Assembly (NCBI GenBank): GCA_963743635.1
Contig: CAVUQO010000002.1
Coordinates: 224,001-288,000 of the forward strand
Direction of reading: 5' to 3'
Source: Candidatus Babeliales bacterium
Lineage (GTDB): Bacteria > Babelota > Babeliae > Babelales > Vermiphilaceae
DNA length: 64,000 nt
Numbering within the stretch: the first letter of the stretch is position 1; each line of letters begins with the position of its first letter. The notes under the pieces are model-generated. The model was not told the origin of the DNA and made no database searches. It worked only from the letters and a program-made list of their open reading frames with translations. A program made the position numbers and the translations under genes. Of the stretch, positions 20,424 through 56,971 are shown piece by piece.

Positions 20424-20503
20424 CCTATTACACAGTTGGTGCTGGTTTTTTGCAATGAGGGAAATTAATGGGAAGAACTGTCCTCGAAGGACAAACTGGC
20501 GTG

Positions 20504-20586
20504 CCGGTCATTTCTGTCCCCGGTCATCCTAAGTTAATCGAAGGACGAAGAAAACTTTCAGCTGACGATGATTGAAAAATGAATGG
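20504..20586 (-). repeat. tRNA-3'-associated palindromic element, family A, copy 1 (83 bp)
   Basis: Starts at the CCA of tRNA-Ser(TGA): CCATTCATTTTTCAATCATCGTCAGCTG... Confidence 0.85.
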
Positions 20587-20675
20587 AGGAGAGAGAGGGA
20601 TTCGAACCCCCGATCCCGATCTCTCGAGATAACGGTTTTCAAGACCGCCGCATTCAACCGCTCTGCCATCTCTCC
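20584..20675 (-). tRNA. tRNA-Ser(TGA)
   Basis: GGAGAGATGGCAGAGCGG...CT-TGA-AA, long variable arm, TTCGAATC, CCA. Confidence 0.95.
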
Positions 20676-20730
20676 GAACCTATTGGAATGCTATATATTG
20701 TACGTTTTCTTAAAAAAAAATCAAATAATA

Positions 20731-21258
20731 CTATGCTTCAGCATATTCTTTGATTCGCTGAATCAATTGTGAGGTCGAAATACCTTTGGTATAGGGTACC
20801 GTCCTGAATATATTGAGAGAAATTGGGACTTCATAATAATAGGCCATTTTCTCCTCCTCAAAGTCACCGCCGTGGACGACGATATCTATGGAATGCTCAT
20901 CTAACCACTCTTGAGTTATTTTTGAGGGGGCATTGGGCAATACTTCATCGACGTATCTGCAAGCTTGAACCGATTTCATCCGTTCTTCCATGGTTAAAAT
21001 TGGCTTGCGCTTATAGGTTTTAATATCTTTATCTGAACAAACACCCACGACAAGTTGATCACCTAGCTGTTTTGCTTGTCTGAGAAATTCTACATGCCCA
21101 TAGTGAAATAGATCTGCAATGATATCGACGTAAACCCGAACTGGCTTATTTTTACGTGATAGATGCGCAGCGCTATTATGCTTTACGTAGTGCTGAACCA
21201 CGAGCGTACCAAAAAGAAGTGTTAAAACGGTTGGTATATACCAGGCGCCTCGTTCCAT
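20731..21258 (-). CDS. Cytidylyltransferase (ethanolamine/choline-phosphate CT-like) with N-terminal TM
   Basis: DLFHYGH, ER..SV.ACRYVDEV, DIVVHGGD, YTKGISTS. Confidence 0.85.
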   Translation of the reverse strand: MERGAWYIPTVLTLLFGTLVVQHYVKHNSAAHLSRKNKPVRVYVDIIADLFHYGHVEFLRQAKQLGDQLVVGVCSDKDIKTYKRKPILTMEERMKSVQACRYVDEVLPNAPSKITQEWLDEHSIDIVVHGGDFEEEKMAYYYEVPISLNIFRTVPYTKGISTSQLIQRIKEYAEA

Positions 21259-21456
21259 TGATGACCTTTAGAATGCGATGAATTTTATCATCGAACGGTA
21301 TGATTTTTTAAGCTTTTTGTCAAACTTTTATGCGCTCGCAGAGGAGCCATATGAAAAAATTCGGGTAGGATTGGGAGTTTTTGGAAAGAGAAGAGTTTTA
21401 GAATGAATACCTATGGTGGCCATAGGTTTTACGAGTAATGATTTTTAAAGGGCTGA

Positions 21457-21539
21457 CTTGCCATTTTTCAATCCTCGTCAGCTGAAAGCTTTCTTCGTCC
21501 TTCGATTAACTCAGGATGACCGGGGATAAAAATGAATGG
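21457..21539 (+). repeat. tRNA-3'-associated element, family A, copy 2 (inverted relative to its tRNA)
   Basis: CATTTTTCAATCCTCGTCAGCTG...GATAAAAATGAATGG, ends at the CCA of tRNA-Arg. Confidence 0.85.
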
Positions 21540-21613
21540 TGCGCCTAAGAGGAATTGAACCTCTAACCTTCAGATTCGTAGTCTGACGCTCTATCCAATT
21601 GAGCTATAGGCGC
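21537..21613 (-). tRNA. tRNA-Arg(ACG)
   Basis: GCGCCTATAGCTCAATTGGATAGAGC..CT-ACG-AA..CCA. Confidence 0.95.
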
Positions 21614-21728
21614 ATTAAATATCAATTTTCTATAGTATACGTAGCTTTTGAGTAATGCTCAAGCTTGTCTATTTCATTTTCCTTACTTGGAACTTATTTT
21701 GCTTTGTGAGCAAGATGGTTACAAGGAG

Positions 21729-21863
21729 GTCCGTCTACGCCTTCGGCTTCTTCGGACAGTCTTCGCTTTATCCTTTTTTGCTATTAATGTAACAATCATT
21801 AAAAAAGGTGGCGAAGCCAGACGAAGCTTGCCGAGCCTGAAGGCCCGGATAAGCGAAGACTGG
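21729..21863 (-). repeat. tRNA-3'-associated element, family B, copy 1
   Basis: CCAGTCTTCGCT...AGCTTCGTCTGG..GCCA...AGCGAAGACTGTCCGA...GCGTAGACGGAC; homologous to 56271-56418. Confidence 0.8.
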
Positions 21864-21951
21864 TGGAGAGAGAGGGATTCGAACCCTCGTGCCCGGTTTC
21901 CCAGACTCTTGCTTAGCAGGCAAGCGCTTTAGTCCACTCAGCCATCTCTCC
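21861..21951 (-). tRNA. tRNA-Ser(GCT)
   Basis: GGAGAGATGGCTGAGTGG..CT-GCT-AA, long variable arm, CCA. Confidence 0.95.
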
Positions 21952-22115
21952 GACAAAAATTTTATAGAATTAAGTGTTAGAACACTCGCTTTTAAAGGAT
22001 AAAGTATTTAGTAGTTTATGCAAGTGTAAGTATAGTATATCTTGTTGTAAAATGCATTGGGAGAGGGGTTATTGTAGTAACATCATGCTTCAATCGGTCG
22101 TACAAGGAATAATAA

Positions 22116-22400
22116 ATGCTTATTATAGAGGTAAAAGTGGTCCCTAGCTCAGGTAAGTCTGAATGCAAATTGGATAAGTCGGGGCGCTTGAAATGCTACC
22201 TCAAAAGCCCCCCAGAGCGCAATGAGGCCAATAATGAGTTAGTGAAATTGTTTGCCAAAGCCTTAAAGCTTACTCAAAACGAGGTCGAGATTGTCTCGGG
22301 AATGACGAGTCGAACCAAGAAATTGAAAATTTTAAAATCTATCACTGAAGATGAGTTATTAGCGCATTTAGGAATTCAACGTCAATTAACAGTGTGGTAA
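22116..22400 (+). CDS. DUF167/YggU family protein
   Basis: V.V.P, PP....AN.EL...AK, IVSG.TSR.K. Confidence 0.85.
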   Translation: MLIIEVKVVPSSGKSECKLDKSGRLKCYLKSPPERNEANNELVKLFAKALKLTQNEVEIVSGMTSRTKKLKILKSITEDELLAHLGIQRQLTVW

Positions 22401-22410
22401 ATGCGGGAAG

Positions 22411-23613
22411 GTGTATATGCCTTATTTTCGTTGGAAAGGAATTGATCTGCAGGGAACGGAGCGGGCGGGCCGTTCATGCGCAGCATCATTGGAAGATCTT
22501 GATACGCAGTTAATGCATCAAAATGTTGCATTGCTCAACAGCAAGCAGCTTTCGAGCCGCTTATTTGAGCGCCCAGTCAGCATGGACGTGAAGATTCAAT
22601 TCTTCAAAAGCTTGGCTACACTCCTTGAAGCCGGGGTTATGCTTCCTGAGGCGCTTGCCTTGGTGGCAGAGCAAGTCCGGCATATTGAATTTCATGAGGC
22701 TCTATACGCAATTAAACGTCAGGTAGAAACCGGCATCACTTTGAGTGATGCGATGGCAAAACATCGCCATATTTTCAATCCACTCATGATTGAAATGGTT
22801 GGAATTGGTTATGAGACCGGCGGTTTGGCAGTATCCTTGGAACGCCTGGTTTCCTATCTTGAAACAATGCAGGACTTTAGAAAAAAAATTCGCATGGCAT
22901 TGACCATGCCGCTCATCACATTTTTATTCTTCGTTGTTATTGCAATAGTACTCGTGATCTGCGTGGTGCCGCAATTTGAATCATTTTTCGCTTCACTCAA
23001 ACAGCCCCTGCCGACCAGTACACGCATTGTTTTACAGGTGAGTGCCTTTATACGTTCTTATGGCATACCTCTGTTGGGGCTTATTGGCATATCTATTGGT
23101 ACATGCGTTTGTTTGTATCGCGTCAATATGCAGGCACGCTATTGTTTTGATCGCCTGATGTTAGCAATACCATTTTTCGGACCATTAATGCTGACCCGGA
23201 TGTGTGCGCAGATCTCGCAAGCGCTGGCACTGCTTCTTGAGGGAGGCATAACGGTAGTGCATGCACTTTCGATCATAACCTCGCTCGTTGATAATATGGT
23301 GCTGCGCGATGTCTTGATTCGCGTGAAGCATGATGTTGAGGCAGGAATGCAGGTGAGCGACGCATTGACGCGCCAAGGAAATAGCTACCTTGGTTCGGAC
23401 GCCATTGCGTTAATACGGGTTGGTGAAACGTCTGCAACCTTGGGGCCAATGTTTGCTGCCGCCGCTCGACGTTACCAGGAATCAGTGACCTACACCTTGC
23501 AATGGCTTTTAAATCTCATGCAGCCATTGGTGGTTGTATTATTGGGCATTCTGATCACTGGCCTCATTATGGCAATTTATCTGCCAATAATGACGATTTC
23601 TTGGGGAATATAA
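22411..23613 (+). CDS. pilC: Type II secretion/type IV pilus platform protein (GspF/PilC)
   Basis: Two T2SSF domains (LATLLEAGV.L.EAL; G.ETG.L), three TM segments, AIYLPI. Confidence 0.9.
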   Translation: MYMPYFRWKGIDLQGTERAGRSCAASLEDLDTQLMHQNVALLNSKQLSSRLFERPVSMDVKIQFFKSLATLLEAGVMLPEALALVAEQVRHIEFHEALYAIKRQVETGITLSDAMAKHRHIFNPLMIEMVGIGYETGGLAVSLERLVSYLETMQDFRKKIRMALTMPLITFLFFVVIAIVLVICVVPQFESFFASLKQPLPTSTRIVLQVSAFIRSYGIPLLGLIGISIGTCVCLYRVNMQARYCFDRLMLAIPFFGPLMLTRMCAQISQALALLLEGGITVVHALSIITSLVDNMVLRDVLIRVKHDVEAGMQVSDALTRQGNSYLGSDAIALIRVGETSATLGPMFAAAARRYQESVTYTLQWLLNLMQPLVVVLLGILITGLIMAIYLPIMTISWGI

Positions 23614-23693
23614 TTATATTCATCGATTGACGTTTTAGGCAGTTTCAAGTACGCTATAATCCTATTCTTTAGAGATCTTTAGATCAATTTATA

Positions 23694-23780
23694 GCCGGGG
23701 TGGCGAAATTGGTAGACGCACGGGACTCAAAATCCCGCGGTAGTAATACTGTATCGGTTCGAGTCCGATCCCCGGCACCA
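23694..23780 (+). tRNA. tRNA-Leu(CAA)
   Basis: GCCGGGGTGGCGAAATTGGTAGACGC..CT-CAA-AA..CCA. Confidence 0.95.
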
Positions 23781-23838
23781 TTCATTTTTCAATCCTCGTG
23801 AGTTGAGGACTTTCTTCGCAGCCGATAAAAATGAATGG
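23778..23838 (+). repeat. tRNA-3'-associated element, family A, copy 3 (61 bp)
   Basis: CCATTCATTTTT...AAAAATGAATGG perfect 12-bp terminal inverted repeat. Confidence 0.9.
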
Positions 23839-24011
23839 CAGGCCACCTTCGCTAAAGCTTGCTGCTTGGCTTCAATTTTCCTAAAATCATTAACGGCTGG
23901 TGCCTGCTTTTTCAATAAATTCCCATCTTCATAAATTTTTCACTCACATCTGCAAAAAAGCAGTATAATAACAATGTTGTTTTTATAACTCTCTTTTCGT
24001 GTAGGTGCGGT

Positions 24012-24344
24012 ATGACAGAACAAAATTGTGTCTTTTGTGGCATTATCAATAAAAAAATTCCAGCAACGGTTATTGTTGAGAATGATCATGTGATTGTCAT
24101 TAATGATATTCATCCTAAAGCACCAGTACATTATCTGGTTATTCCCAAAAAACATGTTTCCGATTTTATGACGCTCACCGATGATACTGTCTTGCAAGAT
24201 CTTAAAAAAATGATTCAAAAGATTGGTCTTTCATTGCCGGGTCAATCATTTCGGTTGCTCATGAATAATGGTGCGGGCGCTGGTCAGAGTGTATTTCATC
24301 TTCATTTTCATATGCTTGCGGGCAAAAATATGGGTGGATTCTAA
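24012..24344 (+). CDS. hinT: HIT family nucleotide-binding protein
   Basis: CVFC, DIHP.AP.H.LVIPKKH, GQSVFHLHFH. Confidence 0.92.
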   Translation: MTEQNCVFCGIINKKIPATVIVENDHVIVINDIHPKAPVHYLVIPKKHVSDFMTLTDDTVLQDLKKMIQKIGLSLPGQSFRLLMNNGAGAGQSVFHLHFHMLAGKNMGGF

Positions 24345-24437
24345 TTATTTTTCCTTTTTGTGATTCTTGTTGTTTTTATGTACCATTTCTTTCCAGACTT
24401 TGTGAGACTATTGTTCACTGGTCACTGGGGAGATATA

Positions 24438-25193
24438 ATGAAGCTGTTATTGCGAACTACGGGATTGTTACTGTTAAGTGTATGTTACCTTGAAGGCAGA
24501 GATATGATGATAATAGCCCATCGTGGAGCTTCAGGACGAGAACCAGAAAATACTATGCGTGCATTTGAGAAGGCTGTTGAATATCGTGCTGATATGATTG
24601 AGTTTGACGTGCATGCATGTGGATCGGGTGAGATAGTTATTATGCATGATGACACTCTCGAACGAACAACCAATGGCTATGGAGAGGTTGGCAAAACGCC
24701 ACTTGCTGGATTACAGCGGCTTGATGCAGGTCTTGGTGAGCCGATTCCAACATTGCAAAAAGTGTTGGATACTTTTCGTGGCATAATAAAACTTGATATT
24801 GAACTCAAAGGAAAACATACCGGAGAGCCAGTTGCGGATCTGCTCCATGAATATATTTACCATTATAAGTGGCCCGTTACAGATATTCTCGTAACCTCTT
24901 TTCTTCATGAAGAATTATTGAAATTGCATGCGATTATGCCAGTAGTTCGCTTGGGTAAGATCTTTGATGACGGCGAATCGATTGAATATGATGCAGCGCT
25001 TTTTTGTGTTATTGTAGTGCCCTATTCGGCACTTACCTCAGAGTTGGTGCAACATGCGCATGCCCGTGGGGTACAAGTTCTGGTCTATACGCTCAATGAA
25101 CGTGAGCAGATATTGCATGCGGTGCAGTGCCAAGTAGATGGTATTATTTCCGATAATCCTGATATTGCTCGATCGATATGCGTACAGCGCTGA
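24438..25193 (+). CDS. Glycerophosphodiester phosphodiesterase (signal peptide)
   Basis: IAHRGASG..PENT..AF, EFDV, HD..LERTT, DGIISDNP. Confidence 0.92.
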   Translation: MKLLLRTTGLLLLSVCYLEGRDMMIIAHRGASGREPENTMRAFEKAVEYRADMIEFDVHACGSGEIVIMHDDTLERTTNGYGEVGKTPLAGLQRLDAGLGEPIPTLQKVLDTFRGIIKLDIELKGKHTGEPVADLLHEYIYHYKWPVTDILVTSFLHEELLKLHAIMPVVRLGKIFDDGESIEYDAALFCVIVVPYSALTSELVQHAHARGVQVLVYTLNEREQILHAVQCQVDGIISDNPDIARSICVQR

Positions 25194-25215
25194 CTGCGCA
25201 TAAAAGAGTAGTTTT

Positions 25216-26118
25216 TCATTCTTGAATTACAGGAATTTCTTTTGTGATTGTTTTCAGCTCATCTTGATAAAAAAGCGCGAGGCCGATAAATACGATAATG
25301 CTTGATGCATAAAAAGGCCATGTCGTAGTTTCATTGAGCCACAGCCATCCATAAAACGCTGCAAAAAAGGGAGAAATAAAGCCTGCAAAGGACACAAAAG
25401 TTGCAGTATATTTTTTTAATAAATACGCATACAAATTCTGACAAATCAGGCTGCCAACAATAGTTACCAACACAAGTAATCCAAGAAAACGGGGAGTATC
25501 AGTAACTGGATACCAACCTTCAAAGAATGGCGCCGTGAGCAGCGCGCAAAATCCACCTCCAAACATGGAGATGCCGTTAATTATAATGGGGGAGTAATGG
25601 GTTTCTCGCACCAATTTGCGAATGATAATCAATGTATAACTATGGGCAACCACAGAGGCAAGGACCGCAATTTCCGGCCATAGGGTACTCGCTGCTGTTT
25701 CTGCGGACGATGAACTAATAAGAATGGGAAAGAAGCCTATAAAACCTATGATTAAGCCTATCCATTGTTTGCGCGTCATCACTTCATTGAGCATGAAATA
25801 AGAAAAGAGTGCAGAAGCAAAAGGCGATAGATTAAACATGAACATTGTTTTCGCAGACGGCAGGAACTGAAAACCCCAAAAGCGAATGATATACGTGAAA
25901 TAAATGCCAAAAAAAGTTATTTGGACAAACATCCAGAGATGTTCTTTTTTGATATGAAAGCTTTCCTGAGTACGAAAATATTGGTAGACCATCATTACAG
26001 CACCGGCAAGGCCAAAGCGAGCAGCAATATAAAAGATAGGTTTACAACATCCAAAGATAAGTTTTGTGAGCGTAAGGGTCAGAGCCCAAAGCGCATAGTG
26101 GATTATAATTAACAGCAT
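25216..26118 (-). CDS. DMT/EamA family transporter
   Basis: About 10 TM, two EamA repeats. Confidence 0.88.
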   Translation of the reverse strand: MLLIIIHYALWALTLTLTKLIFGCCKPIFYIAARFGLAGAVMMVYQYFRTQESFHIKKEHLWMFVQITFFGIYFTYIIRFWGFQFLPSAKTMFMFNLSPFASALFSYFMLNEVMTRKQWIGLIIGFIGFFPILISSSSAETAASTLWPEIAVLASVVAHSYTLIIIRKLVRETHYSPIIINGISMFGGGFCALLTAPFFEGWYPVTDTPRFLGLLVLVTIVGSLICQNLYAYLLKKYTATFVSFAGFISPFFAAFYGWLWLNETTTWPFYASSIIVFIGLALFYQDELKTITKEIPVIQE

Positions 26119-26189
26119 AGTGGTCTATCGCTTTTAAAAAAAGGGTGGCGGGCAGTGATGCGTTATAGATATAACAACGAGGCATTCTT

Positions 26190-27158
26190 TTATTCAAGTA
26201 TTTCTGGAATTTCTTGTTTTATTGATTCCATTTCATCTTGATAGAAGAGTAAAAGTCCAATAAAAACAATGACGCTTGATACATAAAAATGCGGCGTTAT
26301 CTTTTCACTCAGCCATAACCAGCCATACAATGCTGCAAATAAGGGAGACATAAAGCCCGCAAAGGAAAGAAATGTGGCGGTGTACACTTTAAGCAGATAA
26401 GCATACAAATTGTGGCAAATAAGATTGCTAATTAAAATGACGCACGCCAACAATTTGGCAAATTCTAAAAAGTTGGTGACGGGACTGAGGCCTTCATAGT
26501 AAGGAGATGTGATGAGTGCGCATATGCCGCCAACAAACATAGTAAGTCCATTGATCATAGCAGGTGAATAGCTGTTATCACGTACGAGCTTACGAATAAC
26601 AATCCAATTATAACTATGACTTATTACCGAAGCGAGTACTGCAAGTTCTGGCCATGGAATACCGAATTGTGTTGGGGTAATGCCTTCAGTAATTTTTGGC
26701 GTGGTGGTCAACAGATTCCAGAATGCATTTAAAGCAGCAATTGGTGATAAAGGGCTTATTAAAATAGGAATGAATCCTATGACGCCAATACATAGACCAA
26801 GCCATTTTTTGCGCGACATTTCTTCATTTAAAAATATGTATGAAAAGAGAGCTGATAAAAAAGGTGCTAAGTTGAACATAAACATTGCTTTTGAAGCGGG
26901 CAAATATTTGAGTCCCCAAAATCGAATGATGTAGGTAAAATATATGCCAAAAAATACTACCTGCGCGTAAAGCCAGAAATGTTCTCGCTTGAAATGAAAA
27001 TCTTTACGCGCATAAATATATTGATAAGCCAAAAGCAGCATGCCTGCGAGAGACATGCGGGCACCGATATAAAAAATAGGTGCGGTGAAATCGAACATCT
27101 TTTTGCTGATTACAACGGAAAGCGCAAACAGTGCGTAAAGAATTATAATTAATATCAT
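26190..27158 (-). CDS. DMT/EamA family transporter (tandem paralog)
   Basis: Shares FFGIYFTYIIRFWG, MFMFNL.PF.SALFSY and FYQDE with its neighbour. Confidence 0.88.
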   Translation of the reverse strand: MILIIILYALFALSVVISKKMFDFTAPIFYIGARMSLAGMLLLAYQYIYARKDFHFKREHFWLYAQVVFFGIYFTYIIRFWGLKYLPASKAMFMFNLAPFLSALFSYIFLNEEMSRKKWLGLCIGVIGFIPILISPLSPIAALNAFWNLLTTTPKITEGITPTQFGIPWPELAVLASVISHSYNWIVIRKLVRDNSYSPAMINGLTMFVGGICALITSPYYEGLSPVTNFLEFAKLLACVILISNLICHNLYAYLLKVYTATFLSFAGFMSPLFAALYGWLWLSEKITPHFYVSSVIVFIGLLLFYQDEMESIKQEIPEILE

Positions 27159-27252
27159 AGGATTATCATTTAAATGAGTGGTACATATACTGAAAACTTA
27201 GTGTACCACATTATTGTGCTCAAAGTAGTATAATTATGTAGAGATCGGCTTT

Positions 27253-28320
27253 TTATGCTGTAGTAGTCTGGTTATTGGGTAGAATTTTTCCTGCAAAATT
27301 TCGTACCGCATTTCTATATTCATGTTTTTTAATCAAAAGATTATTGGCATGGCGTGAACCTTGAAAAATAACGAGCTCGTCCTGGCCGTTATTATGGTTT
27401 TCTTTTAGTGTCTGAATGTTCGTAAGCGGCGCATATTGATCACTCTCTTCATGTATATAGAGTATCGGTGTATCTTTCAGTATCTGAATTTTATCATCAA
27501 CACGAGAGACATGATCATGTTCCTGAATACCCCCCTTGACCAGTCCGATAGCAAGGCTCGTGAGTGGATAGCCAACCGAATTCCAAATGATTTTGTGTAA
27601 AAGGCGGTTTGATACTGCTGCGGTTCTATCGTTGCAGAAGATCCAACTGCGTAATATTTGAGAGAGCAACACATGCTTAAAGTGATAGTAACCAGCCGGC
27701 ACCACCTGCATACTTGAAGTGAATGCACTATCAAGAATGATTCCTTTAACGTTATACTTCTCTAATTCATTCTTTTTTTGGAGTTCACACAGTGCTCGCA
27801 GCGTATGAAAACCACCAGCACATAAGCCGAGCGTGATGAGCGGTTTCGTATTATCTTTGTTGTGCGCATAATCCATAGCGCCAATGACGTCTTTATAATG
27901 ATGCTTGCCATAGCGTCGCAGCTTAGCTACAAAGCTCAGGAGAGCGTTATTCTCACCTTGCCTGCGTGCATCAAAAAAAAGAATATTACTTTCATCGGGA
28001 AGGAGTTTTACGAGCGTTGACATTCCTTCCTTATTATTGGGAAAAAATCCGCCGGAGACAATGGTAGTATGAGTTGCGTTAGTTCTCGGGACCCAGATTC
28101 CATGAATATTAAAGTTATCCTGTGTGGTGAAGATAATTGATTCGGCGTTGTAATATTTTTTTAGATGCTCTCTGACACCGCTCTGATTTTTCAAAAGATT
28201 ATTGGTATCAAAAAGGGGATCATCATCAAGATTTGTGCTCGGGGCAGGTAATTCTGGCAATGAAAAGGCGGGGGCAGAACTTAAGAGTAATAATGGGATC
28301 AGGAGGGTGCGTATCATCAT
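27253..28320 (-). CDS. Secreted alpha/beta-hydrolase-fold protein
   Basis: FTTQD...IHG.W, FDARRQGE, GLCAGG at nucleophile elbow, LDSAF, D and H catalytic-position motifs. Confidence 0.65.
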   Translation of the reverse strand: MMIRTLLIPLLLLSSAPAFSLPELPAPSTNLDDDPLFDTNNLLKNQSGVREHLKKYYNAESIIFTTQDNFNIHGIWVPRTNATHTTIVSGGFFPNNKEGMSTLVKLLPDESNILFFDARRQGENNALLSFVAKLRRYGKHHYKDVIGAMDYAHNKDNTKPLITLGLCAGGFHTLRALCELQKKNELEKYNVKGIILDSAFTSSMQVVPAGYYHFKHVLLSQILRSWIFCNDRTAAVSNRLLHKIIWNSVGYPLTSLAIGLVKGGIQEHDHVSRVDDKIQILKDTPILYIHEESDQYAPLTNIQTLKENHNNGQDELVIFQGSRHANNLLIKKHEYRNAVRNFAGKILPNNQTTTA

Positions 28321-28404
28321 ATTAATTCCAAGGAATGGACTAGTTTTAGATATTGTCGGCGTCTAGTCTATGATATTGCATTATTAATGCAAAAAATTGT
28401 CACA

Positions 28405-49005: not shown

Positions 49006-50301
49006 ATGAAATTTATAACACAATTAGTATTAGTATCAATGGTCCTTACTGGCCAATCGATATCCGCTATGAGCGCAAAAGCACTGGCGGCTTATAGAGA
49101 GCGTGAAATGGCAGGAAGAACAGAGCAAGCCTCTGCAGCTTCAAGCAGCTCATCATCGTCCTCATCAGCGAGCAGTCAATCATCAGAAGGGGAAGCGCGT
49201 AGACCTAAAGGAAAACGAGCTTTAACGCGTCAAGAATTGACACAGATGGAACAACAAGAAAAAGCAGCCATAGAGGCACTAAAATTGGCAGAAAAAGCAG
49301 CGTATGAAGCAGAGGATAAAGCAAGAGAAGAAGCAAAAAAACTCGAAGCATTAGCTGCAGAATTGGCACAAGAAGAGTGGAATTTGGAAAGGCAAGCTGC
49401 AGAGAAACTTGCAAAGCAAGATGAAGAATTAGCGAAACAATTGCAAAAACAAGCAAGTATTGAAGCAAAAGAAGAAGAATTGAATACTCTTAAACAGCAG
49501 CAGCAGATTGCAGAAAAAGATGCGCTGTTAGCGAAGCAATTGGCAGAGCAGGTAGAGGCAGAAGCGCAAGAGCTTAAGCAGCGAATTGCCGAAGATGAAG
49601 AACTAGCGAGAAAATTAGCTGAAGAAAGTGGCCCTTCTGGTCAGTCGAGTGCGAGTAGTTCTTCACAAGCGGCCGAGCTCCAGCAGTGCGGCATTTGTAT
49701 GGAAGACGTTGAGCCGCAGAATATGGTAAATCTTGCATGTCAGCATGCCTATTGCCGTGGATGTTTGACTCAGCTTGTTGAAACCGGTCTTAAGGAAAAA
49801 AATATTGAAGGTATTAAGTGCCCAACGTCTGAATGTAATGCTCCAATGACCCGGGCAGATATTTTTGATATTACGCAAAATCCTGCAAAAGTTGAGGAAT
49901 ATAATGCTATCGCTACCGAGACAGCCCTACCTAAGCTGCAAGGTATCAGGCAGTGTCCTACGGCGAACTGTCCATACCAATTTTTAAATGAAGCAGATGA
50001 GACTCAGGAAACGCGGTGTCCTATGTGCACAAAGCGCTATTGCGCAAACTGCTTAAAAGAGCACAGTGCTCGCATGTCGTGCGAACAAGCGGCAGCTGAC
50101 GCGGCAATGACCTCAGATGATCGGGAGCGGGCAACGGAAGAATGGAAAAAAACACACACAAAGCCATGTCCGAAATGTAACGTTTCAATTGAGAAAGATG
50201 CAGGATGTAATCATATGAGATGCATAACTCCTAGCTGCAGCCACCAGTTTTGTTGGGTGTGTAAACAGCCATGGAACGCAGACCATTACCGCTGTCAGTG
50301 A
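49006..50301 (+). CDS. Secreted RBR (RING1-IBR-RING2) E3 ubiquitin ligase-like effector
   Basis: Signal peptide; CGIC..ACQHAYCRGC..CPTSEC; CPTANC..CPMC..YCANC..H..C; CPKC..IEKDAGCNHMRC..C.HQFCWVC. Confidence 0.92.
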   Translation: MKFITQLVLVSMVLTGQSISAMSAKALAAYREREMAGRTEQASAASSSSSSSSSASSQSSEGEARRPKGKRALTRQELTQMEQQEKAAIEALKLAEKAAYEAEDKAREEAKKLEALAAELAQEEWNLERQAAEKLAKQDEELAKQLQKQASIEAKEEELNTLKQQQQIAEKDALLAKQLAEQVEAEAQELKQRIAEDEELARKLAEESGPSGQSSASSSSQAAELQQCGICMEDVEPQNMVNLACQHAYCRGCLTQLVETGLKEKNIEGIKCPTSECNAPMTRADIFDITQNPAKVEEYNAIATETALPKLQGIRQCPTANCPYQFLNEADETQETRCPMCTKRYCANCLKEHSARMSCEQAAADAAMTSDDRERATEEWKKTHTKPCPKCNVSIEKDAGCNHMRCITPSCSHQFCWVCKQPWNADHYRCQ

Positions 50302-50482
50302 CCGTTATAATTATAGGTATAAATCTGTGCCCCCTTGTTTCTGACTAGAAAATAAGGGGGCTACTATTTCTAGATGGGCAGCAAAAATCCTAAAAAAGTG
50401 TATACTGATAAGGATTTTGATAAATACCTATGCCTGGCCTGATACCTAAAAAGCCATGGCTTTCAGTGATGTGGAATGATTT

Positions 50483-51228
50483 ATGAAAAAAATAATACAA
50501 AAACCAGCATTGGTGACCTTAAATACTTATCTTGCTCATGCGGGCGTTTGTTCTCGTCGAAAAGCGGCTGAATTGGTTGAATCGGGCGTCGTGCGCGTCA
50601 ACCAGCAGGTTGTGGCTGATCCCGGCTATCGGGTAAAACCAGATGATATCGTGGAAGTCTCGGGAAGAAACATTACTCCTGAAGATCACGTCTATGTTTT
50701 GCTTAATAAGCCAAAAGATTATGTAACGACCGTTTCAGATGAGCGTGGCCGTAAAACAGTCATGGACTTAGTTCGCGGTGCTGGGCACGTTCGGCTGTAT
50801 CCCATTGGGCGCCTTGATCGGATTACAACCGGATTATTGCTCATGACCAATGATGGTGCATTTGCAGAAAAATTGGCCCATCCTCGCTATGAAGTAGAAA
50901 AAGTATACACGGTGACGCTTGATAAGAGCGTGAGCTCTGGTGATATACAGACGATTATGCGTGGAATTCAGCTTGAAGATGGATTGATTAAGGTGGATGA
51001 TATAGCGTATACGGGGACCACCAAAAGAGAGGTTACCTTAGCGCTTCACAGCGGAAAATATCGGGTTGTGCGTAGAATATTTGAACAACTTGGGTATGAT
51101 GTGCGTAAGCTTGACCGTATAGAATATGCAGGGTTAACCAAAAAAGAGTACCGGTTGGTATGTGGCGTTACCTGACGGATGGCGAAGTTGCCGCACTAAA
51201 AAGAATGAAAAATGAGGAAAAGGAATAA
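50483..51228 (+). CDS. rluB: 23S rRNA pseudouridine synthase (RluB/RsuA family; frameshift near the end)
   Basis: S4 domain GVCSRRKA, GRLD.ITTGLLLMTNDG. Confidence 0.9.
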
Positions 51229-51230
51229 TC

Positions 51231-52015
51231 ATGGATTATGGAACGATTGTTCGTATTGGTATTTTGGTCGCAATGGGCGTAGTTGGCATTTCTGCCATGA
51301 AACGCGTCTTAACCAGAGCTCTCGAGCGATGGTACAATGATCCAGTTCGCATACCGATTATGGTACGATTGTTGACCTATTTAGCGGTATTTATTGTCGG
51401 TGCCTCAATTATGCAAGAATTGGGCATTAATATTACTGCATTGTTGGGTGCTGCAGGGATCTTGGGTGTGGCCATTGGTTTTGCCGCACAAGCGAGCGTC
51501 AGTAATATCATCAGTGGTATATTTATCCTGATCGAACGTCCGTTCTCAATAGATGATGAAATTCAAATTGATGAGTTCAGTGGAAAAGTGGTAGACATCA
51601 ATCTATTTTCTATCGGATTGCTGACTCCCGATCATCGTTCTATTCGTATTCCGCACGAAAAATTATTGAAAAACGTTATCATCAATAAAACTCATCGCGC
51701 AAAGCGCCGTTACGAAGTCACTATTGCATTAGCATCGTATGAAGATCTTGATCGTGCACGTGCAGTGTTTGTGGATGCTATGCGTAATGAATCGTATTGC
51801 CTAATCTCACCTGAGCCAATTGTGTGGGTGGATACAATCAATGGCGATGTAACGCAATTGATCGTTGGTGTTTGGGTTGATAGCAGCAAATTGGTTGAAG
51901 CAAAACACCGTCTTGTTGGCGCGTTATATCCCGCGTGTAAAAAAGAAAATATACATCTCATCAACCATCTACGATGTCGATACAAGTCACGCAGAAGTAA
52001 TTTCAACAATGATGT
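51231..52015 (+). CDS. mscS: Small-conductance mechanosensitive channel (end approximate)
   Basis: LGAAGILGVAIGFAAQ..VSNIISG..ILIERPF. Confidence 0.88.
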
Positions 52016-52100
52016 GAGTTTTTGTAGGCAACGTCTGGATCTTATGATACGCTCCTTGCATAAATTATGTAAAAATTATCTATGCGTAGCAGGTATTCGT

Positions 52101-53433
52101 ATGTCAAATGCTCATCTCGTCATTGAACAATCGTGGGGTCTTTCAGGAGAATTGGAATTGGTTGGCGCAAAAAATGCGGTGCTGGTCATTATGGCAGCAT
52201 TAATTTTGACGCGCGGCAAGTCAGTTCTAAAAAATGTTCCGGCATCATCTGATGTCGATCAAATGATTTTAGTGCTCGAAGAATTGGGCGCTCAGGTTAC
52301 GTTCTGTCGCAAAGAACATCGTCTTGAAGTTGATACAACGTTCCATCTCAAAATACAGCGTCAGTCCTGAAATCATGCGCAAGATGCGGGCATCCATTTT
52401 AGTAATGGGGCCGTTACTTGCACGCTTTGGTAAAGCAGATATTGCATTGCCGGGCGGTTGCGTCATTGGCGCGCGTCCCGTTGATTATCACATCAAAAAT
52501 TTTGAACAAATGGGCGTCATGGTTGAAATGCATGGTGACTACTTAAAAGCAGTAGCGCCAGTTTTGCAGGCAACCACGTTAGTGCTCGATTATCCAAGCG
52601 TTGGTGCAACTGAAAATATTATGATGGCTGCAGCGCTGACGCCGGGCGTAACGCGCATTATTAATGCCGCATTAGAGCCGGAAGTGTTGGATTGCATTGA
52701 AGTGCTGCGTAAAATGGGTGCAGATATTGCGATTTTACCGCCAGCAACGCTTGAAATTAGAGGCGTGAGCTCGCTAAAACCCATTGAGCATGCGATTGTC
52801 TATGATCGTTTAGAAGCGGGCGCATTATTGCTAGCTGCGGCGATTACGGGCGGAAATATTTCATTGCCACAAGCGCCAGCATACACGATGGATATTGTGA
52901 TTAAGAAATTACGAGATATGGGGCATATTCTGAACGTGGGTGCAGATGGGGTCGGAATTACCTTACACGCAACGCAAACGCCGCGCGCCGTATCATTCAA
53001 GACTGGTCCATATCCGAGCTTTCCGACCGATTTACAAGCGCCTATGATGGCAGCGCAATGTATTGCCAATGGCACGAGTATGGTCGAAGAGACGGTTTTT
53101 GAAAATCGTTTGGTGCATGTGCGTGAATTGCAAAAAATGGGTGCGCAGATTACCGTTGAGCACAATAAAGCAACGGTAATGGGTGTTGAGGAATTGTATG
53201 GAACGCAGATCATTGCAACCGATATTCGCTCTTCATGCGCATTAGTTCTTGCGGGATTAGTGGCAAAAGGAGCAACGCATATGACCGGCATTCATCATTG
53301 GCAACGAGGTTATGAAATGCTTGAGCGTAAACTTGCTCATTTGGGTGCGCGTATTGCGCTTAAAGAATTCGAGCCAGCTCGCGTTGAGTTTGACGAAACT
53401 CTTGATAAGAAATGGCACGAAGTACAATCGTAG
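52101..53433 (+). CDS. murA: UDP-N-acetylglucosamine 1-carboxyvinyltransferase (frameshift near 52350)
   Basis: GAKNA, MRAS, LPGGCVIGARP, SVGATEN, FPTDLQ, FENR. Confidence 0.95.
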
Positions 53434-53564
53434 TTCGATGCGCTTCGCTACTCACCATGAACGGATTATTCTGAGTTTGACGAAGGAGCCATCACGACTG
53501 CGGCTATGTCAGACGTAGCTCCAGAAAGAAAGGAGCGAAGAGTGAATAAACGAAGTCGGAAGGG
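53434..53564. repeat. REP-like element between convergent murA and atpG
   Basis: TTCGATGCGCTTCGCTACT matches the reverse complement of 682-700 with one mismatch; ends GGG-TTA at the atpG stop. Confidence 0.65.
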
Positions 53565-54413
53565 TTAGAACCCACCCGTGAGTTCGGTAAGTTCTTTGGT
53601 AATTTTTGCCTGACGCACTTTATTGTAGTGCAATTTATTCACTTCAAGTAAATTCTCAGCGCTGCGTGTTGAATTATCCATGGATAAAAAGCGCGCAGCT
53701 TGTTCTGCAAGTAATGAATGAAAGAGGAGCATATGTACCGTTGCTTGTAAGCATTGGCGCGTAATGTCATCAAGTAGTTCGCTCGGAGATTCTTCCCATC
53801 GATATTCAATTCTTTCCAGCGTGCTGTGATCTCGGGTGCCCGGATCGAATGGAATGAGGCGCGTTATGTGCGGTTGTTGTACGAAAAAACTTCTAAATTT
53901 ATTACTGACGACGGTCACGTGCGTATAGGGTACTGGCATAGAGATCAGGTCTTGCACGATCGCTTCTGCAGTCAGTGCAATGGTGCTCATGGTCAGCGGA
54001 GAATAGATTTTAATGATTTTGCCAAAAGGCATGTCCTGTGTGTAATCAACCGTTTTTTTACCGACTATCATGACATCAGGCGTTTTGGTATAAGTACGAA
54101 GAGTGGCGCGCAGGAATTGAAAGAGCATAGTATTAAAGCTACCGCAAAGACCTTTTTCTGATCCCATGATGATGATAAGAGGTCGAGACTCCAGGTCTGC
54201 TTTTGGATTGAAATAGGGATGGTGCCAAACAGGAACTTCTTTTTTAATCATATGAAAGAGGGTATTGAGCGTTGTGGTGTACTGAGAAAGTGCAACTTCT
54301 TTATTTTTAAGGCGTGCATGGGTCGAGATAGAGATAAGTCGCATCGCGTGAGTAATTTTCTTAATTGTCTCGATCGCTTTTATTCGCTGTTTGAGCTGAG
54401 TCAATTGAGCCAT
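53565..54413 (-). CDS. atpG: ATP synthase F1 gamma subunit
   Basis: KKITHAMRLIS, KGLCGSFN, EQAARF.SMD, YNKVRQAKITKELTE. Confidence 0.95.
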   Translation of the reverse strand: MAQLTQLKQRIKAIETIKKITHAMRLISISTHARLKNKEVALSQYTTTLNTLFHMIKKEVPVWHHPYFNPKADLESRPLIIIMGSEKGLCGSFNTMLFQFLRATLRTYTKTPDVMIVGKKTVDYTQDMPFGKIIKIYSPLTMSTIALTAEAIVQDLISMPVPYTHVTVVSNKFRSFFVQQPHITRLIPFDPGTRDHSTLERIEYRWEESPSELLDDITRQCLQATVHMLLFHSLLAEQAARFLSMDNSTRSAENLLEVNKLHYNKVRQAKITKELTELTGGF

Positions 54414-54504
54414 ATATGCGCCTTATATAAAATTATGGTAGGATACGTACCTTAATTACATATGGTATCGCTAACAAACTGTTTTTTCAATGGTGAGGGT
54501 ATGT

Positions 54505-55086
54505 ATGATTTTAATAATCGATGGTTATAATATTTTAAAGCGCCAGCATGTGGTCCGTTTTGTGGATGAGGCGGTACGCAAGCGATTCATACAAGGAGTT
54601 GCTGCATACGCGCGTCATAGTGGTAATAAAGTTCTCGTGGTGTTTGATGGTGGCCCGCAGGACGATGCTTATGAAGAATATGGGCGTGGCGTGCAGGTTG
54701 TCTATTCGGGTACGCGAGAAACGGCTGACGATTATATTAAACGCTATGTGAAAAGGCATAGTAATAAAGATCTTATGCTCGTGACCTCTGATCGCGAACT
54801 GAATAGTATTGCAGATCGTTATGCAGTTCCTTCGCTTGATGCGCATGAATTTGTGCGGGTTTTGATGTATAGTGAGCATGAGCGTTCGACGGGAAGTTCT
54901 TCAAAACATGCGCCAATTATAAAAATGAGCACTGAAGAAATACCAGAATTGGATGAATTGATGGAGCAAGCGAGTAAAGCCGTACCACAAAAAACTGATG
55001 ATCTGATGTTGAAAAATCGAAAAAGCGCCGCGCAAAAAATGTCAAAAAAAGAGCGCGAGTTGCTTAAAAAAGTAAAAAAATTATAG
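54505..55086 (+). CDS. NYN/YacP-like RNase domain protein
   Basis: IIDGYN, VVFDG, ETADDYI, VTSDREL. Confidence 0.88.
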   Translation: MILIIDGYNILKRQHVVRFVDEAVRKRFIQGVAAYARHSGNKVLVVFDGGPQDDAYEEYGRGVQVVYSGTRETADDYIKRYVKRHSNKDLMLVTSDRELNSIADRYAVPSLDAHEFVRVLMYSEHERSTGSSSKHAPIIKMSTEEIPELDELMEQASKAVPQKTDDLMLKNRKSAAQKMSKKERELLKKVKKL

Positions 55087-55092
55087 GGGCTT

Positions 55093-55524
55093 ATGGCAAA
55101 CCACCAATTAATATATACACTTGATCAGCTTGATAATGCGGTTAAACTGGTCAAAGAGCGGATGAATTCATGTCAGGTTGTGACTTTTACGGGGAATTTG
55201 GGTGCGGGAAAAACGACTCTCATCCGAGCCCTCTTACGAGATTTAGGGGTTTCGCAACCCATTACAAGTCCAACCTTTACGTATATGAATCGGTATAAGA
55301 CGGCGGATGGCAAGATTATCTACCATTTTGATTTATACCGTTTAAACAGCCTGGATGAGTTTATAGAGCAGGGATTTCATGAATACCTGTACCAACCTGA
55401 AAGTTGGTGCCTGGTTGAGTGGCCGGCGATTATTATGCCTCTTTTGACCCATGATGTATGCCATATAACCCTCGATTATGAGAACGACGCTCGCTGTATG
55501 CGCTGGAAAATGAATAAGGAATAA
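55093..55524 (+). CDS. tsaE: tRNA t6A biosynthesis ATPase TsaE
   Basis: GNLGAGKTT, TSPTF, YHFDLYRL, VEW. Confidence 0.95.
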   Translation: MANHQLIYTLDQLDNAVKLVKERMNSCQVVTFTGNLGAGKTTLIRALLRDLGVSQPITSPTFTYMNRYKTADGKIIYHFDLYRLNSLDEFIEQGFHEYLYQPESWCLVEWPAIIMPLLTHDVCHITLDYENDARCMRWKMNKE

Positions 55525-55528
55525 CAAT

Positions 55529-55738
55529 ATGCAAGATGATGGAAGTCCGTTGCTCCAAAGGCCAGATTATTTGGTTTGCACCTGTATGGGGGTCATGTAC
55601 TCGGATATCTGTGATGCCATAAAAGGTGGCGTACAGACATTTGATGAACTTTATGATACGTTAGGTGTGGGGACTGGGTGTTCAAGTTGTGTGAGCGAAG
55701 TGCATGAAATATTGGCAGAACAACTTAAAAAAAAATAA
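55529..55738 (+). CDS. BFD-like (2Fe-2S) ferredoxin
   Basis: VCTCMGV...GVGTGCSSC. Confidence 0.85.
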   Translation: MQDDGSPLLQRPDYLVCTCMGVMYSDICDAIKGGVQTFDELYDTLGVGTGCSSCVSEVHEILAEQLKKK

Positions 55739-55898
55739 TTTAAAAAACGCGATTATACACACTAGATCGACCTTTTGGTGTGTTTTGGGGTGAAAAAGAG
55801 GTGATAAACTCTTATTTTTTTGTAAAATTAAGTTGAAATCTCCTGAGAAAAACACTATCATATTCACGGTAATCGTGATTATAACAATATTTGAAATA

Positions 55899-55983
55899 GG
55901 CGAGATTCCCGAGCGGTCAAAGGGGACGGACTGTAAATCCGTTGGTTCTGCCTTCGCAGGTTCGAATCCTGCTCTCGCCACCA
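55899..55983 (+). tRNA. tRNA-Tyr(GTA)
   Basis: CT-GTA-AA, variable arm, CCA. Confidence 0.95.
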
Positions 55984-55989
55984 TAGGTT

Positions 55990-56065
55990 GCGGGAATAGC
56001 TCAATTGGTAGAGTGGCAGCCTTCCAAGCTGTAGGTTGCGGGTTCGAGTCCCGTTTCCCGCTCCA
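55990..56065 (+). tRNA. tRNA-Gly(TCC)
   Basis: GCGGGAATAGCTCAAT..CT-TCC-AA..CCA. Confidence 0.95.
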
Positions 56066-56123
56066 TTCATTTTTCAATCCTCGTTAGCTGAGAGCTTTCT
56101 TTGCAGCGGATAAAAATGAATGG
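56063..56123 (+). repeat. tRNA-3'-associated element, family A, copy 4 (61 bp)
   Basis: CCATTCATTTTT...AAAAATGAATGG. Confidence 0.9.
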
Positions 56124-56197
56124 CTGGCCATTTTCGTCAAGGCTTACGAATGGTAAGTATGGGCGTAGATTGGTAGGAATCAAAAAAAATATACATT

Positions 56198-56273
56198 GCT
56201 GGCGTAGCTCAGTTGGTAGAGCAACTGATTTGTAATCAGTAGGTCGCGGGTTCAAATCCTGCCGCCAGCTCCA
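56198..56273 (+). tRNA. tRNA-Thr(TGT)
   Basis: TT-TGT-AA, CCA. Confidence 0.95.
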
Positions 56274-56418
56274 GTCTTCGCTCCTCATGGAGCTTCGTCT
56301 GGAAAGCCAGGCATAGGAACTGGTTTTATTGAAATAGTAAAAGGGGCAGAGCGTAGACTGTCCGATCGAAGCAAAACGCTTCGTGGAGTAAATCTTCGGA
56401 GTAATAGCGAAGACGGAC
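56271..56418 (+). repeat. tRNA-3'-associated element, family B, copy 2
   Basis: CCAGTCTTCGCT..AGCTTCGTCTGG..GCCA..AGCGTAGACTGTCCGA..GCGAAGACGGAC. Confidence 0.8.
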
Positions 56419-56542
56419 TCATCCAGTTATACAGGTATGTGTTAAATCCGGGGCTTTATTGTAGTTTCAAGCAGAAAATTAAGTTGTTTTTTTCCTTTTT
56501 TTTAATTAATCTATAATAGATCACTGTAAGATACGTTGCAGT

Positions 56543-56618
56543 GCCCACGTAGCTCAGTTGGTAGAGCACTTCCTTGGTAAGGGAGAGGTCACCGGTTCAA
56601 GTCCGGTCGCGGGCTCCA
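56543..56618 (+). tRNA. tRNA-Thr(GGT)
   Basis: TT-GGT-AA, CCA. Confidence 0.93.
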
Positions 56619-56679
56619 TTTTCGGTGTAATACGCGATCAAAAAAAACAAAACTACTTATACATTAACGAGTGAATTTT

Positions 56680-56840
56680 ATGGCAAAAAATCGAATTGTT
56701 AGTCACCTGATGTGTGAAGAAACAAAAGAAAAAAATTATACCTTAGTTGTTTCTAAAGGAAGAACTCTAGGTTCATTCGACTTCGTAAATACTGCCCTAA
56801 ATTGCGCAAGTATACGATGCACAAAGAAGTTAAAAACTAG
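56680..56840 (+). CDS. rpmG: 50S ribosomal protein L33 (frameshifted in assembly)
   Basis: MAKNRIV.HLMCEE...NY, then LRKYCPKLRKYTMHKEVK in a second frame. Confidence 0.88.
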
Positions 56841-56847
56841 AAAAAAA

Positions 56848-56924
56848 AGGCCAGTAGCTCTAATTGGTAGAGCGGCAGACTCCAAATCTGAGGGTTGGGG
56901 GTTCAAATCCCTCCTGGCCTGCCA
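56848..56924 (+). tRNA. tRNA-Trp(CCA)
   Basis: CT-CCA-AA; lies between rpmG and secE. Confidence 0.95.
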
Positions 56925-56971
56925 GGCCAAGAGTGAACATTGTCTCATACCTATAACTAGTTGGAACATGA

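What the first reader, a model, noticed from the sequence alone, without database searches (positions are those of the whole stretch)
20497..56929. Shared grammar CCA-[stem]-TGG-N3-4-GCCA across both trailer families
Seen: despite unrelated internal sequences, the hairpin closes on the tRNA CCA and is followed 3-4 nt later by a second GCCA. The cases are Leu TGG-CAG-GCCA, Gly TGG-CTG-GCCA, Ser-TGA CGG-CAC-GCCA, Ser-GCT TGG-CTTC-GCCA and Thr TGG-AAA-GCCA. The inverted Arg copy does not show it. tRNA-Trp ends GCCA-G-GCCA (56921-56929), possibly a collapsed remnant. Six of the nine non-rrn tRNAs here carry an element. Inference: one tRNA-end-targeting mechanism, with the second CCA acting as a target duplication or a regenerated site.
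Basis: inference. Interest (0 to 1): 0.7.

Follow-up and report, generated by a model that had tools for sequence, protein, structure and literature searches.

The report
Selfish hairpin leaders at tRNA ends
Six tRNA genes here are followed, from their CCA end, by gene-less copies of the folded leader of a small, apparently undescribed selfish element that elsewhere carries an 80-residue nuclease gene and moves between tRNA genes; the second CCA is part of the element, not a copy of the target.

Summary
The motif is real: 13 of 35 tRNA/tmRNA genes of this genome have it (shuffles 0.7). Both trailer families are leaders of one element, CCA | hairpin | TGGC-N2-4-GCCA | spacer | second arm | SLX1-like GIY-YIG gene; the six window copies lack the gene. 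82 of 111 such genes lie 73-407 nt behind a tRNA/tmRNA end; 93 of 94 genomes with the gene have leaders, 32 of 33 leader-free genomes lack it. One cassette sits behind tRNA-Pro here and tRNA-Phe elsewhere, homology running from CCA to the stop codon. The second GCCA is not a target duplication: it is internal, its G ignores the discriminator (7 of 64 match), and empty sites lack it. It rarely serves as a new landing site (4 of 112). True duplications exist but are 16-19 nt, start in the T-loop and lie beyond the gene. Arg has a decayed tail; Trp is undecided. Closest known: Ssn nucleases with SRM hairpins (different clade, no tRNA link). The scan found this element before in other genomes. Cleavage and mobility mechanism are inferred.

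The parts
20584..20675 (-). tRNA-Ser(TGA), host gene whose CCA (20584-20586) is the left junction
20497..20586 (-). Family-A leader with a hybrid interior, closing imperfectly on CCA, tail CGG-CAC-GCCA (20497-20506); small extra hairpin at 20480-20492
21537..21613 (-). tRNA-Arg(ACG)
21454..21539 (-). Family-A leader whose interior (about 21472-21532) is inverted relative to the Ser-TGA copy; stem 4 nt short; decayed tail TGG-CAA-GTCA (21454-21463). A contig of a near-identical strain has this interior in the other orientation
21861..21951 (-). tRNA-Ser(GCT)
21809..21863 (-). Family-B first hairpin from CCA, with tail TGG-CTTC-GCCA (21809-21819)
21729..21808 (-). Family-B AT-rich spacer (21767-21808) and second arm (21729-21766), whose first 10 bases are the perfect complement of the bases at and after the tRNA CCA; in full cassettes the nuclease gene follows about 40 nt later; no gene remnant here
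23694..23780 (+). tRNA-Leu(CAA)
23778..23845 (+). Family-A leader, 12-bp perfect stem on CCA, tail TGG-CAG-GCCA (23836-23845); in a related organism's contig the trailer is replaced starting exactly after 23780
23846..23859 (+). Start of a degenerate family-B-like unit stacked directly on the second CCA
55990..56065 (+). tRNA-Gly(TCC)
56063..56130 (+). Family-A leader, 12-bp perfect stem on CCA, tail TGG-CTG-GCCA (56121-56130); orthologous spacer is empty (35 nt or less) in 21 of 28 relatives
56131..56153 (+). Degenerate family-B mini-hairpin that starts at, and closes on, the second CCA
56198..56273 (+). tRNA-Thr(TGT)
56271..56309 (+). Family-B first hairpin from CCA, tail TGG-AAA-GCCA (the conserved C after TGG is lost)
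56310..56418 (+). Family-B spacer (56310-56350) and second arm (56351-56418); no nuclease gene follows
56915..56929 (+). tRNA-Trp 3' end plus GGCCA: a 7-bp inverted repeat with a 1-nt loop; possible collapsed leader, fold-back of the tRNA's own end, or chance; membership undecided

Best explanation
The trailers are non-autonomous, gene-less leaders of a selfish cassette of about 400 nt: tRNA/tmRNA-CCA | leader (first hairpin whose TGG pairs with the target's CCA; TGGC-N2-4-GCCA; in family B an AT-rich spacer and a second inverted arm) | gene for an 80-87-residue stand-alone GIY-YIG nuclease of SLX1-like type. Shown: layout, junction at CCA, covariation of the arms, co-occurrence of gene and leaders, movement of one cassette between different tRNA genes. 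Inferred: the nuclease binds the folded single strand (tRNA 3' half plus leader) and nicks it at or near the tRNA 3' end; host repair copies a donor leader or cassette in behind the CCA (homing-like gene conversion using CCA and leader homology), leaving the tRNA intact and pushing any older trailer downstream; the copy ends loosely a few bases after the stop codon, or, less often, leaves a 16-19-nt duplication from T-loop position 58 to the tRNA end. Because all tRNA genes end in CCA, leaders spread to many tRNAs of one genome and lose the gene by deletion. The second GCCA is the element's own sequence, the palindromic partner of TGGC, able to take the TGG arm off the tRNA's CCA and now and then to receive another unit.
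For: Full cassettes in this genome: tRNA-Pro + B leader + gene, tRNA-Glu + A leader + gene. 82 of 111 genes of the clade have a tRNA/tmRNA end 73-407 nt upstream, 80 of 82 with the tail, 73 of 82 with an A or B arm right after CCA. In 151 genomes of the phylum: 93 of 94 with the gene have B leaders, 32 of 33 without leaders lack the gene (kin are not independent). G017 (gene present) 16 of 34 tRNAs with the motif, G014 (gene not found) 0 of 33. An 85%-identical cassette follows tRNA-Phe in L541 and tRNA-Pro here; likeness begins at the CCA and ends at the stop codon, each followed by a different older trailer. First base after CCA is complementary to the base before TGG in 105 of 110 B units, and bases +1/+2 to the second arm in 60 and 61 of 67 (shuffles 28, 22). 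Catalytic Y6, Y18, R28, H32, E64 invariant in 18 sequences; nearest solved relatives are SLX1 domains by sequence and fold. Duplications of the tRNA end beyond the gene: 5 of 82 in the phylum set and 3 with a gene between in the 80 GTDB loci; 7 of these 8 start at A58, one at 59. All 12 sites ending C71-C72-A73 without an encoded CCA tail carry a leader or, in 2, a degenerate one (4 of the 12 were fetched by a pattern that required a leader).
Against: No cleavage, binding or transposition was observed; a hydrolytic GIY-YIG nuclease cannot join strands (established knowledge), so all joining must come from the host. 25 of 57 genomes without a detected gene still have leaders. 29 of 111 genes had no tRNA end within 450 nt, 24 of them still with a tail-like motif, some behind other CCA strings; in metagenome and viral hits only 9 of 27 had a tRNA end (many contigs short, several hits distant). 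Family-B-like hairpins also lie dispersed in this genome away from tRNAs. The right end has no conserved mark: only 11 of 122 gene ends have a whole displaced hairpin within 110 nt. T-loop-starting duplications are also what some integrases leave (recalled), and an island at tRNA-Arg(TCT) of this genome has one. No excised or joined form was seen in four runs of contigs.
Confidence: 0.7

Rival explanations
1. One reading: the unit ends at the second CCA, which is a target-site duplication (3-4 nt) or a site regenerated for the next insertion.
For: The second CCA arrives with the element (0 of 25 arm-less Gly spacers hold GCCA). The base after the second CCA equals the base after the first in 45 of 78 units (shuffle mean 31.5, max 43). 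Units stacked on the second CCA: 4 of 112, including Leu and Gly here.
Against: Preceding base is G in 74 of 75 and matches the tRNA in 7 of 64; conserved, covarying element sequence continues 10-90 nt past it in 67 of 110 B units and on to the gene; real duplications lie elsewhere. A bare 3-nt CCA duplication cannot be excluded by sequence for family A alone.
Confidence: 0.08
2. The cassette moves through an RNA copy (target-primed reverse transcription at a nick, as Penelope elements pair GIY-YIG with reverse transcriptase), which would explain the right end near the stop codon and the 16-19-nt duplications.
For: Right junction within about 4-11 nt of the stop codon in 6 of 11 loci with a whole displaced hairpin; defined duplications; leaders fold stably as RNA.
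Against: No reverse transcriptase in the cassette and none found in this genome (85% complete); no poly(A) or 5'-truncated series noticed.
Confidence: 0.1
3. A general REP-like palindrome family, spread by some other enzyme, that accumulates behind tRNA genes; the nuclease is a passenger or acts like SsnA on the repeats for another purpose.
For: About 20 family-B-like hairpins lie away from tRNAs in this genome; leaders persist in 25 of 57 genomes without the gene; SsnA shows a GIY-YIG that cuts its repeats without shown mobility (PMC11893778).
Against: No Y1/RAYT transposase found in the genome; gene and leader move together between tRNA-Pro and tRNA-Phe; fixed spacing and orientation of the gene behind the leader.
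Confidence: 0.08
4. A host signal for tRNA 3' processing or termination.
For: Starts exactly at the mature 3' end; the tail could free the CCA by pairing with TGG.
Against: Absent from most orthologous sites (21 of 28 Gly spacers are 35 nt or shorter) and from whole genomes (0 of 33); trailer swapped at Leu in a relative; predicted to bury CCA in a stem (pairing probability 0.98-1.0 for Leu); no U run after the stems.
Confidence: 0.04

Closest known systems
Ssn nucleases with NTS/SRM hairpin repeats (Chenal et al. 2025, PMC11893778; read: abstract, Results part 1 of 4, section 10, passages; supplements not read)
   Same: Single-domain GIY-YIG of under 100 residues, flanked by its own hairpin repeats that occur in many gene-less copies; authors liken NTS-ssnA-NTS to a mobile element.
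   Different: Different clade (tRNA-linked proteins separate from NTS-flanked ones, 98/96 and 98/97 support, about 32% identity over 65 residues); SRM motif has 2 hits in this genome, none in a trailer; the words tRNA and tmRNA do not occur in that paper; here the repeat is anchored on, and pairs with, a target CCA.
GTAG/CGTC-tagged REPs, BIMEs and RAYT (Di Nocera et al. 2013, PMC3733652; read: abstract and passages) and IS200/IS605 guide pairing (recalled)
   Same: Imperfect 20-60-nt palindromes with GTAG/CGTC-like strings, in inverted pairs and mosaics; an element-borne motif that pairs with the target and insertion 3' of a short target without duplication.
   Different: No Y1 transposase found; partner is a hydrolytic GIY-YIG; strict siting at tRNA/tmRNA CCA; that paper has no GIY mention and no tRNA-end siting in the passages found.
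Slx1 family, stand-alone prokaryotic members (Dunin-Horkawicz et al. 2006, PMC1564403; read: passages); free-standing GIY-YIG homing endonucleases such as phage T4 SegB (search listing only)
   Same: Minimal GIY-YIG domain nearest to SLX1 by sequence (E 6e-6) and fold (TM-score about 0.7); spread by nuclease-started gene conversion is the inferred mode.
   Different: Prokaryotic Slx1-like proteins are there predicted to be repair enzymes; homing enzymes have extra DNA-binding domains and one cognate site, whereas this cassette has none and occupies many different tRNA genes.
tRNA-targeting integrative elements with T-loop crossover (recalled)
   Same: A copy of the tRNA 3' end starting in the T-loop lies beyond the insert in 8 cassettes.
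   Different: Inserts are 335-540 nt with no room for an integrase; most cassettes have no such copy.

Membership tests
Ssn/SRM | Single-domain GIY-YIG protein of about 80-100 residues | tested here: met
   PF01541 over its cut-off, 82-87 residues
Ssn/SRM | Member of the Ssn (cd10448) clade | tested here: not met
   By proxy: tree with 5 GIY-YIG proteins found beside the NTS motif; the 14 tRNA-linked proteins form a separate, well supported group. CDD itself was not available.
Ssn/SRM | Gene flanked by SRM motif repeats | tested here: not met
   Published degenerate SRM pattern: 2 hits in the genome, none at trailers or at the two cassettes
Ssn/SRM | Sequence-specific cleavage of single-stranded DNA near its own hairpin | not testable with these tools
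   Needs purified protein
REP/RAYT | Short imperfect palindromes in many extragenic copies | tested here: met
   12 whole family-A units and about 40 loci of both families
REP/RAYT | Associated Y1 (HUH) transposase | tested here: not met
   PF01797 not found in this genome, 85% complete
MITE / classical IS | Target-site duplication flanking both ends of the unit | tested here: not met
   Second CCA is internal and G-prefixed regardless of target; Pro and Phe cassettes end with at most 1-2 shared bases
MITE / classical IS | Terminal inverted repeats | tested here: inconclusive
   Leader has covarying inverted arms, but they bound the leader, not the cassette; the right end is unmarked
Free-standing homing endonuclease | Intact GIY-YIG catalytic residues | tested here: met
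   Y6, Y18, R28, H32, E64 invariant in 18 of 18
Free-standing homing endonuclease | One cognate allele and a separate DNA-binding domain | tested here: not met
   Same cassette at tRNA-Pro and tRNA-Phe; protein is the catalytic domain alone
tRNA-targeting integrative element | Duplicated tRNA 3' end beyond the insert | tested here: inconclusive
   Present in 5 of 82 cassettes of the phylum set and 3 further loci; absent from the rest
tRNA-targeting integrative element | Encodes an integrase | tested here: not met
   Inserts of 335-540 nt hold only leader and nuclease gene

The most novel reading that the evidence does not exclude
A new class of minimal mobile element in which an 80-residue SLX1-like nuclease and a folded leader read the universal tRNA features in single-stranded DNA, the leader's TGG base-pairing with the target CCA as a guide and the enzyme nicking the T-loop between positions 57 and 58, so that one element can colonise any tRNA or tmRNA gene without an integrase or transposase; the TGGC-N-GCCA tail is a switch that frees the CCA for tRNA maturation.
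Probability: 0.3. Interest if true: 0.85.

Novelty: new variant of a known kind. Interest (0 to 1): 0.62.

Why it matters
It assigns a selfish role to a large group of tiny 'GIY-YIG nuclease family' genes usually taken for repair enzymes, explains structured trailers behind up to about half or more of the tRNA genes in some genomes (30 in one), and offers a directly testable model of targeting by the universal CCA end and T-loop. If the nuclease proves a structure-guided single-strand enzyme, it is one of the smallest known and a second family beside Ssn. Leaders that bury the CCA also raise a question for tRNA maturation in these small-genome bacteria.

Tried and rejected
Family A as the right end of the cassette (suggested by the tRNA-Pro locus): rejected, since the same cassette at tRNA-Phe is followed by a B trailer, so both are displaced older trailers. 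Gene remnants behind the window's trailers: none (best E 0.96). NCBIfam: no family for three proteins. Patterns had a gap too short for tRNAs with an encoded CCA, so they picked ends without a tail (tRNA-Ala- or tmRNA-like by eye); one search is therefore not a fair sample, and 39 of its 119 loci were not analysed. (family A across relatives) was not repeated with the right gap, so the co-occurrence counts cover family B only. A profile scan of metagenome contigs could not be built; viral contigs gave 5 loci, 2 examined. RNA folding of Ser-TGA, Gly and Trp misfolded the tRNA, so their pairing figures are unreliable. Reads: only contigs were available, no excised form, no information on expression or processing; the one RNA run holds relatives at about 85-90%, not this organism; small-share runs were not used for habitat. 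Thr(GGT) trailer has a faint likeness to a mini-hairpin, not counted. Trp remnant: 1 of 434 tRNA-like ends, chance 0.00034 per CCA, about 0.15 expected in that set, 0 of 27 orthologues with an arm: undecided. Paper searches found no description: 14 papers, none on this by listing; 0; 0; 3, unrelated; 49, 15 listed, none on this by listing; 0; 0; subscription journals are mostly not covered.
Full report
Setting. The window is C2:224001-288000 of a 1.45-Mb, 85%-complete genome. Earlier notes on this genome call it Babeliales/Dependentiae (not tested here; a named Ca. Babeliaceae contig has the same leader, L190). It holds 11 tRNA genes, nine outside the rRNA operon; Rfam finds nothing in the trailers.

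Observation. In the whole genome 13 of 35 tRNA/tmRNA genes have YGG-N3-4-GCCA within 150 nt (one borrowed from a neighbour); shuffles give 0.68 (max 5 of 500), random CCA sites 1.07. The closure on CCA is perfect for family A (Leu, Gly 12 of 12) and imperfect for family B (8 of 12) and Ser-TGA (9 of 12). In 79 of the 110 the closing arm could be located without the tail (31 dropped): the next base is C in 74 of 79, the base before the second CC is G in 74 of 75, the base after it A in 64 of 75. The grammar is thus TGGC-N2-4-GCCA. The Arg copy has a decayed tail and an interior inverted against Ser-TGA; a contig from a near-identical strain has that interior flipped back, so this is a loop inversion between the arms.

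What the trailers belong to. Behind tRNA-Glu and tRNA-Pro of this genome the same leaders run into small GIY-YIG genes: family B at Pro, family A at Glu. Of 111 distinct genes of this clade, 82 have a tRNA/tmRNA end on the same strand 73-407 nt upstream; 80 of 82 have the tail, 67 a B arm and 6 an A arm directly after CCA; 29 have no tRNA end within 450 nt, 24 of them still a tail-like motif. In 151 genomes of the phylum, 94 have the gene and 118 have B leaders; 93 of 94 gene-bearing genomes have leaders, 32 of 33 leader-free genomes lack the gene, 25 have leaders without a detected gene (kin are not independent). One relative with the gene has the motif at 16 of 34 tRNAs, one without at 0 of 33. 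Leaders also occur in Verrucomicrobiota, Planctomycetota and others, 28 of 80 analysed loci with a nuclease hit, mostly with the second arm nested inside the first hairpin (a biased sample). The window's six copies have no gene remnant.

Mobility and junctions. L541 carries an 85%-identical protein behind tRNA-Phe; aligned with the tRNA-Pro locus, likeness starts at the CCA, covers leader and gene, and stops at the stop codon, after which each has a different older trailer. At tRNA-Leu a contig of a related organism replaces the trailer starting exactly after 23780. Orthologous sites are often empty: 21 of 28 Gly(tcc) and 13 of 28 Tyr spacers are 35 nt or shorter and none holds GCCA. Of 89 sites ending C71-C72-A73, 12 lack the encoded CCA tail and all 12 have a leader or a degenerate one (4 were selected by pattern), which suggests that the CCA string itself is the landing point. 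The right end is unmarked: 11 of 122 gene ends have a whole displaced hairpin within 110 nt, 6 within 7-14 nt of the domain end and without a kept CCA, 4 behind a duplicated tRNA end.

The second CCA. It is not a target duplication: its preceding base equals the tRNA's in 7 of 64 units, and in family B a spacer and a second arm follow it, the arm covarying with the bases after the tRNA CCA (60 and 61 of 67; shuffles 28 and 22). It pairs with TGGC and so competes with the tRNA's CCA for the same TGG; the base after it tends to repeat the base after the first CCA (45 of 78, shuffle mean 31.5; related sequences inflate this). A new unit starts directly on it in 4 of 112 units (background 0.6%), two in this window: an occasional landing site at most. 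Real duplications exist: 19 nt in four and 18 nt in one of 82 cassettes, 16 nt in three further loci with the gene between and one locus without it. Seven of the eight with a gene start at T-loop A58 (my numbering from the T-loop consensus), one at 59. A sixth hit lies before the gene behind another repeat type, and one distant viral locus has a 40-nt copy. Trp: GGCCA is what a deletion between the CA of the tRNA and the CA of the commonest tail would leave, but 56915-56929 is also a perfect 7-bp inverted repeat of the tRNA's own end, and 1 case in 434 ends is near chance.

The protein. 82-87 residues, GIY-YIG domain only, catalytic residues invariant in 18 sequences, confident model (pLDDT 95.7), nearest solved relatives SLX1 domains and UPF0213. 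In a tree it is separate from five GIY-YIG proteins found beside the NTS motif and from three UPF0213-like ones (long branches meet, so deeper order is unsure).

Mechanism. Shown: anatomy, junction, covariation, co-occurrence, movement between tRNA species. Inferred (about 0.5 on its own): by analogy with SsnA (cuts folded single-stranded DNA near its hairpin, PMC11893778) and SLX1 (structure-specific), the enzyme nicks the folded single strand at the tRNA 3' half; host repair copies in a donor leader or cassette behind CCA; a nick at 57/58 would give the 16-19-nt duplications, and recombination between such repeats or between leaders would drop the gene and leave gene-less trailers. As RNA the leaders can bury the CCA (Leu 0.98-1.0), so the tail may serve to release it; untested. 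No Y1 transposase or reverse transcriptase was found in the genome.

Known and new. It works like Ssn/SRM and REP/RAYT (small nuclease plus cognate hairpins, many gene-less copies) but fails their membership tests. Eight paper searches found no description; supplements of the Ssn paper were not read and subscription journals are mostly not covered. The scan has noted this element in at least eight other findings on other genomes; these gave me the Ssn paper as a lead and are not counted as evidence.

Verdict. Observation confirmed with corrections; interpretation partly supported. New variant of a known kind; interest 0.62.

Noticed in passing
G000 C2:162268-162334 (-) and tRNA-Arg(TCT) C2:180133-180209 (-), outside the window: A family-A unit sits behind a tRNA-Arg-like 3' fragment 18 kb from tRNA-Arg(TCT): an island displaced the old tRNA end together with its trailer, so the trailer is older than the island.
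   Followed up: partly
G000 C2:571600-572011, behind tRNA-Arg(CCT): Four tandem 98-bp units, each a third hairpin family plus the tRNA 3' end starting at T-loop 57/58; the tRNA has no encoded CCA. The same hairpin type forms the interior of the window's Ser-TGA and Arg trailers.
   Followed up: partly
G000 C2:93375, C3:642014, C3:289325: A second, UPF0213-like clade of small GIY-YIG genes flanked by its own palindromic repeats, not at tRNAs: possibly a parallel nuclease-repeat system.
   Followed up: partly
G000 tmRNA C2:43900, tRNA-Ser(GGA) C3:582526, tRNA-Met(CAT) C2:417611, tRNA-Lys(CTT) C3:633479: These genes lack the encoded CCA tail and the leader starts after C71-C72-A73; relatives mostly encode the tail.
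   Followed up: partly
L507, L519 (upstream of the nuclease gene): Leaders inserted inside tRNA gene fragments, in L507 after an internal CCA string near the D arm.
   Followed up: no
L494, L497, L526, L528, L530, L454, L491: Leaders behind GC-rich CCA ends that are not tRNA T-arms; may be 3' ends of other RNAs or displaced fragments.
   Followed up: no
Family-B spacers, e.g. window 21767-21808: The AT-rich spacer has a preferred length of 38-53 nt and short purine-rich motifs at both ends (39 and 36 of 67), suggesting a conserved internal loop or promoter.
   Followed up: no
window 56274-56309 and other B hairpins: The mismatches of the first B hairpin are pyrimidine-pyrimidine on the transcribed strand and GAA/GAA on the other strand, the reverse of the second arm; may mark which strand folds as the substrate.
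   Followed up: no
G017 C1:182479 and 192053; G006 C1:589044 and 593890; G004 C42:17086 and 27979: Two tmRNA-like matches 5-11 kb apart in three relatives.
   Followed up: no
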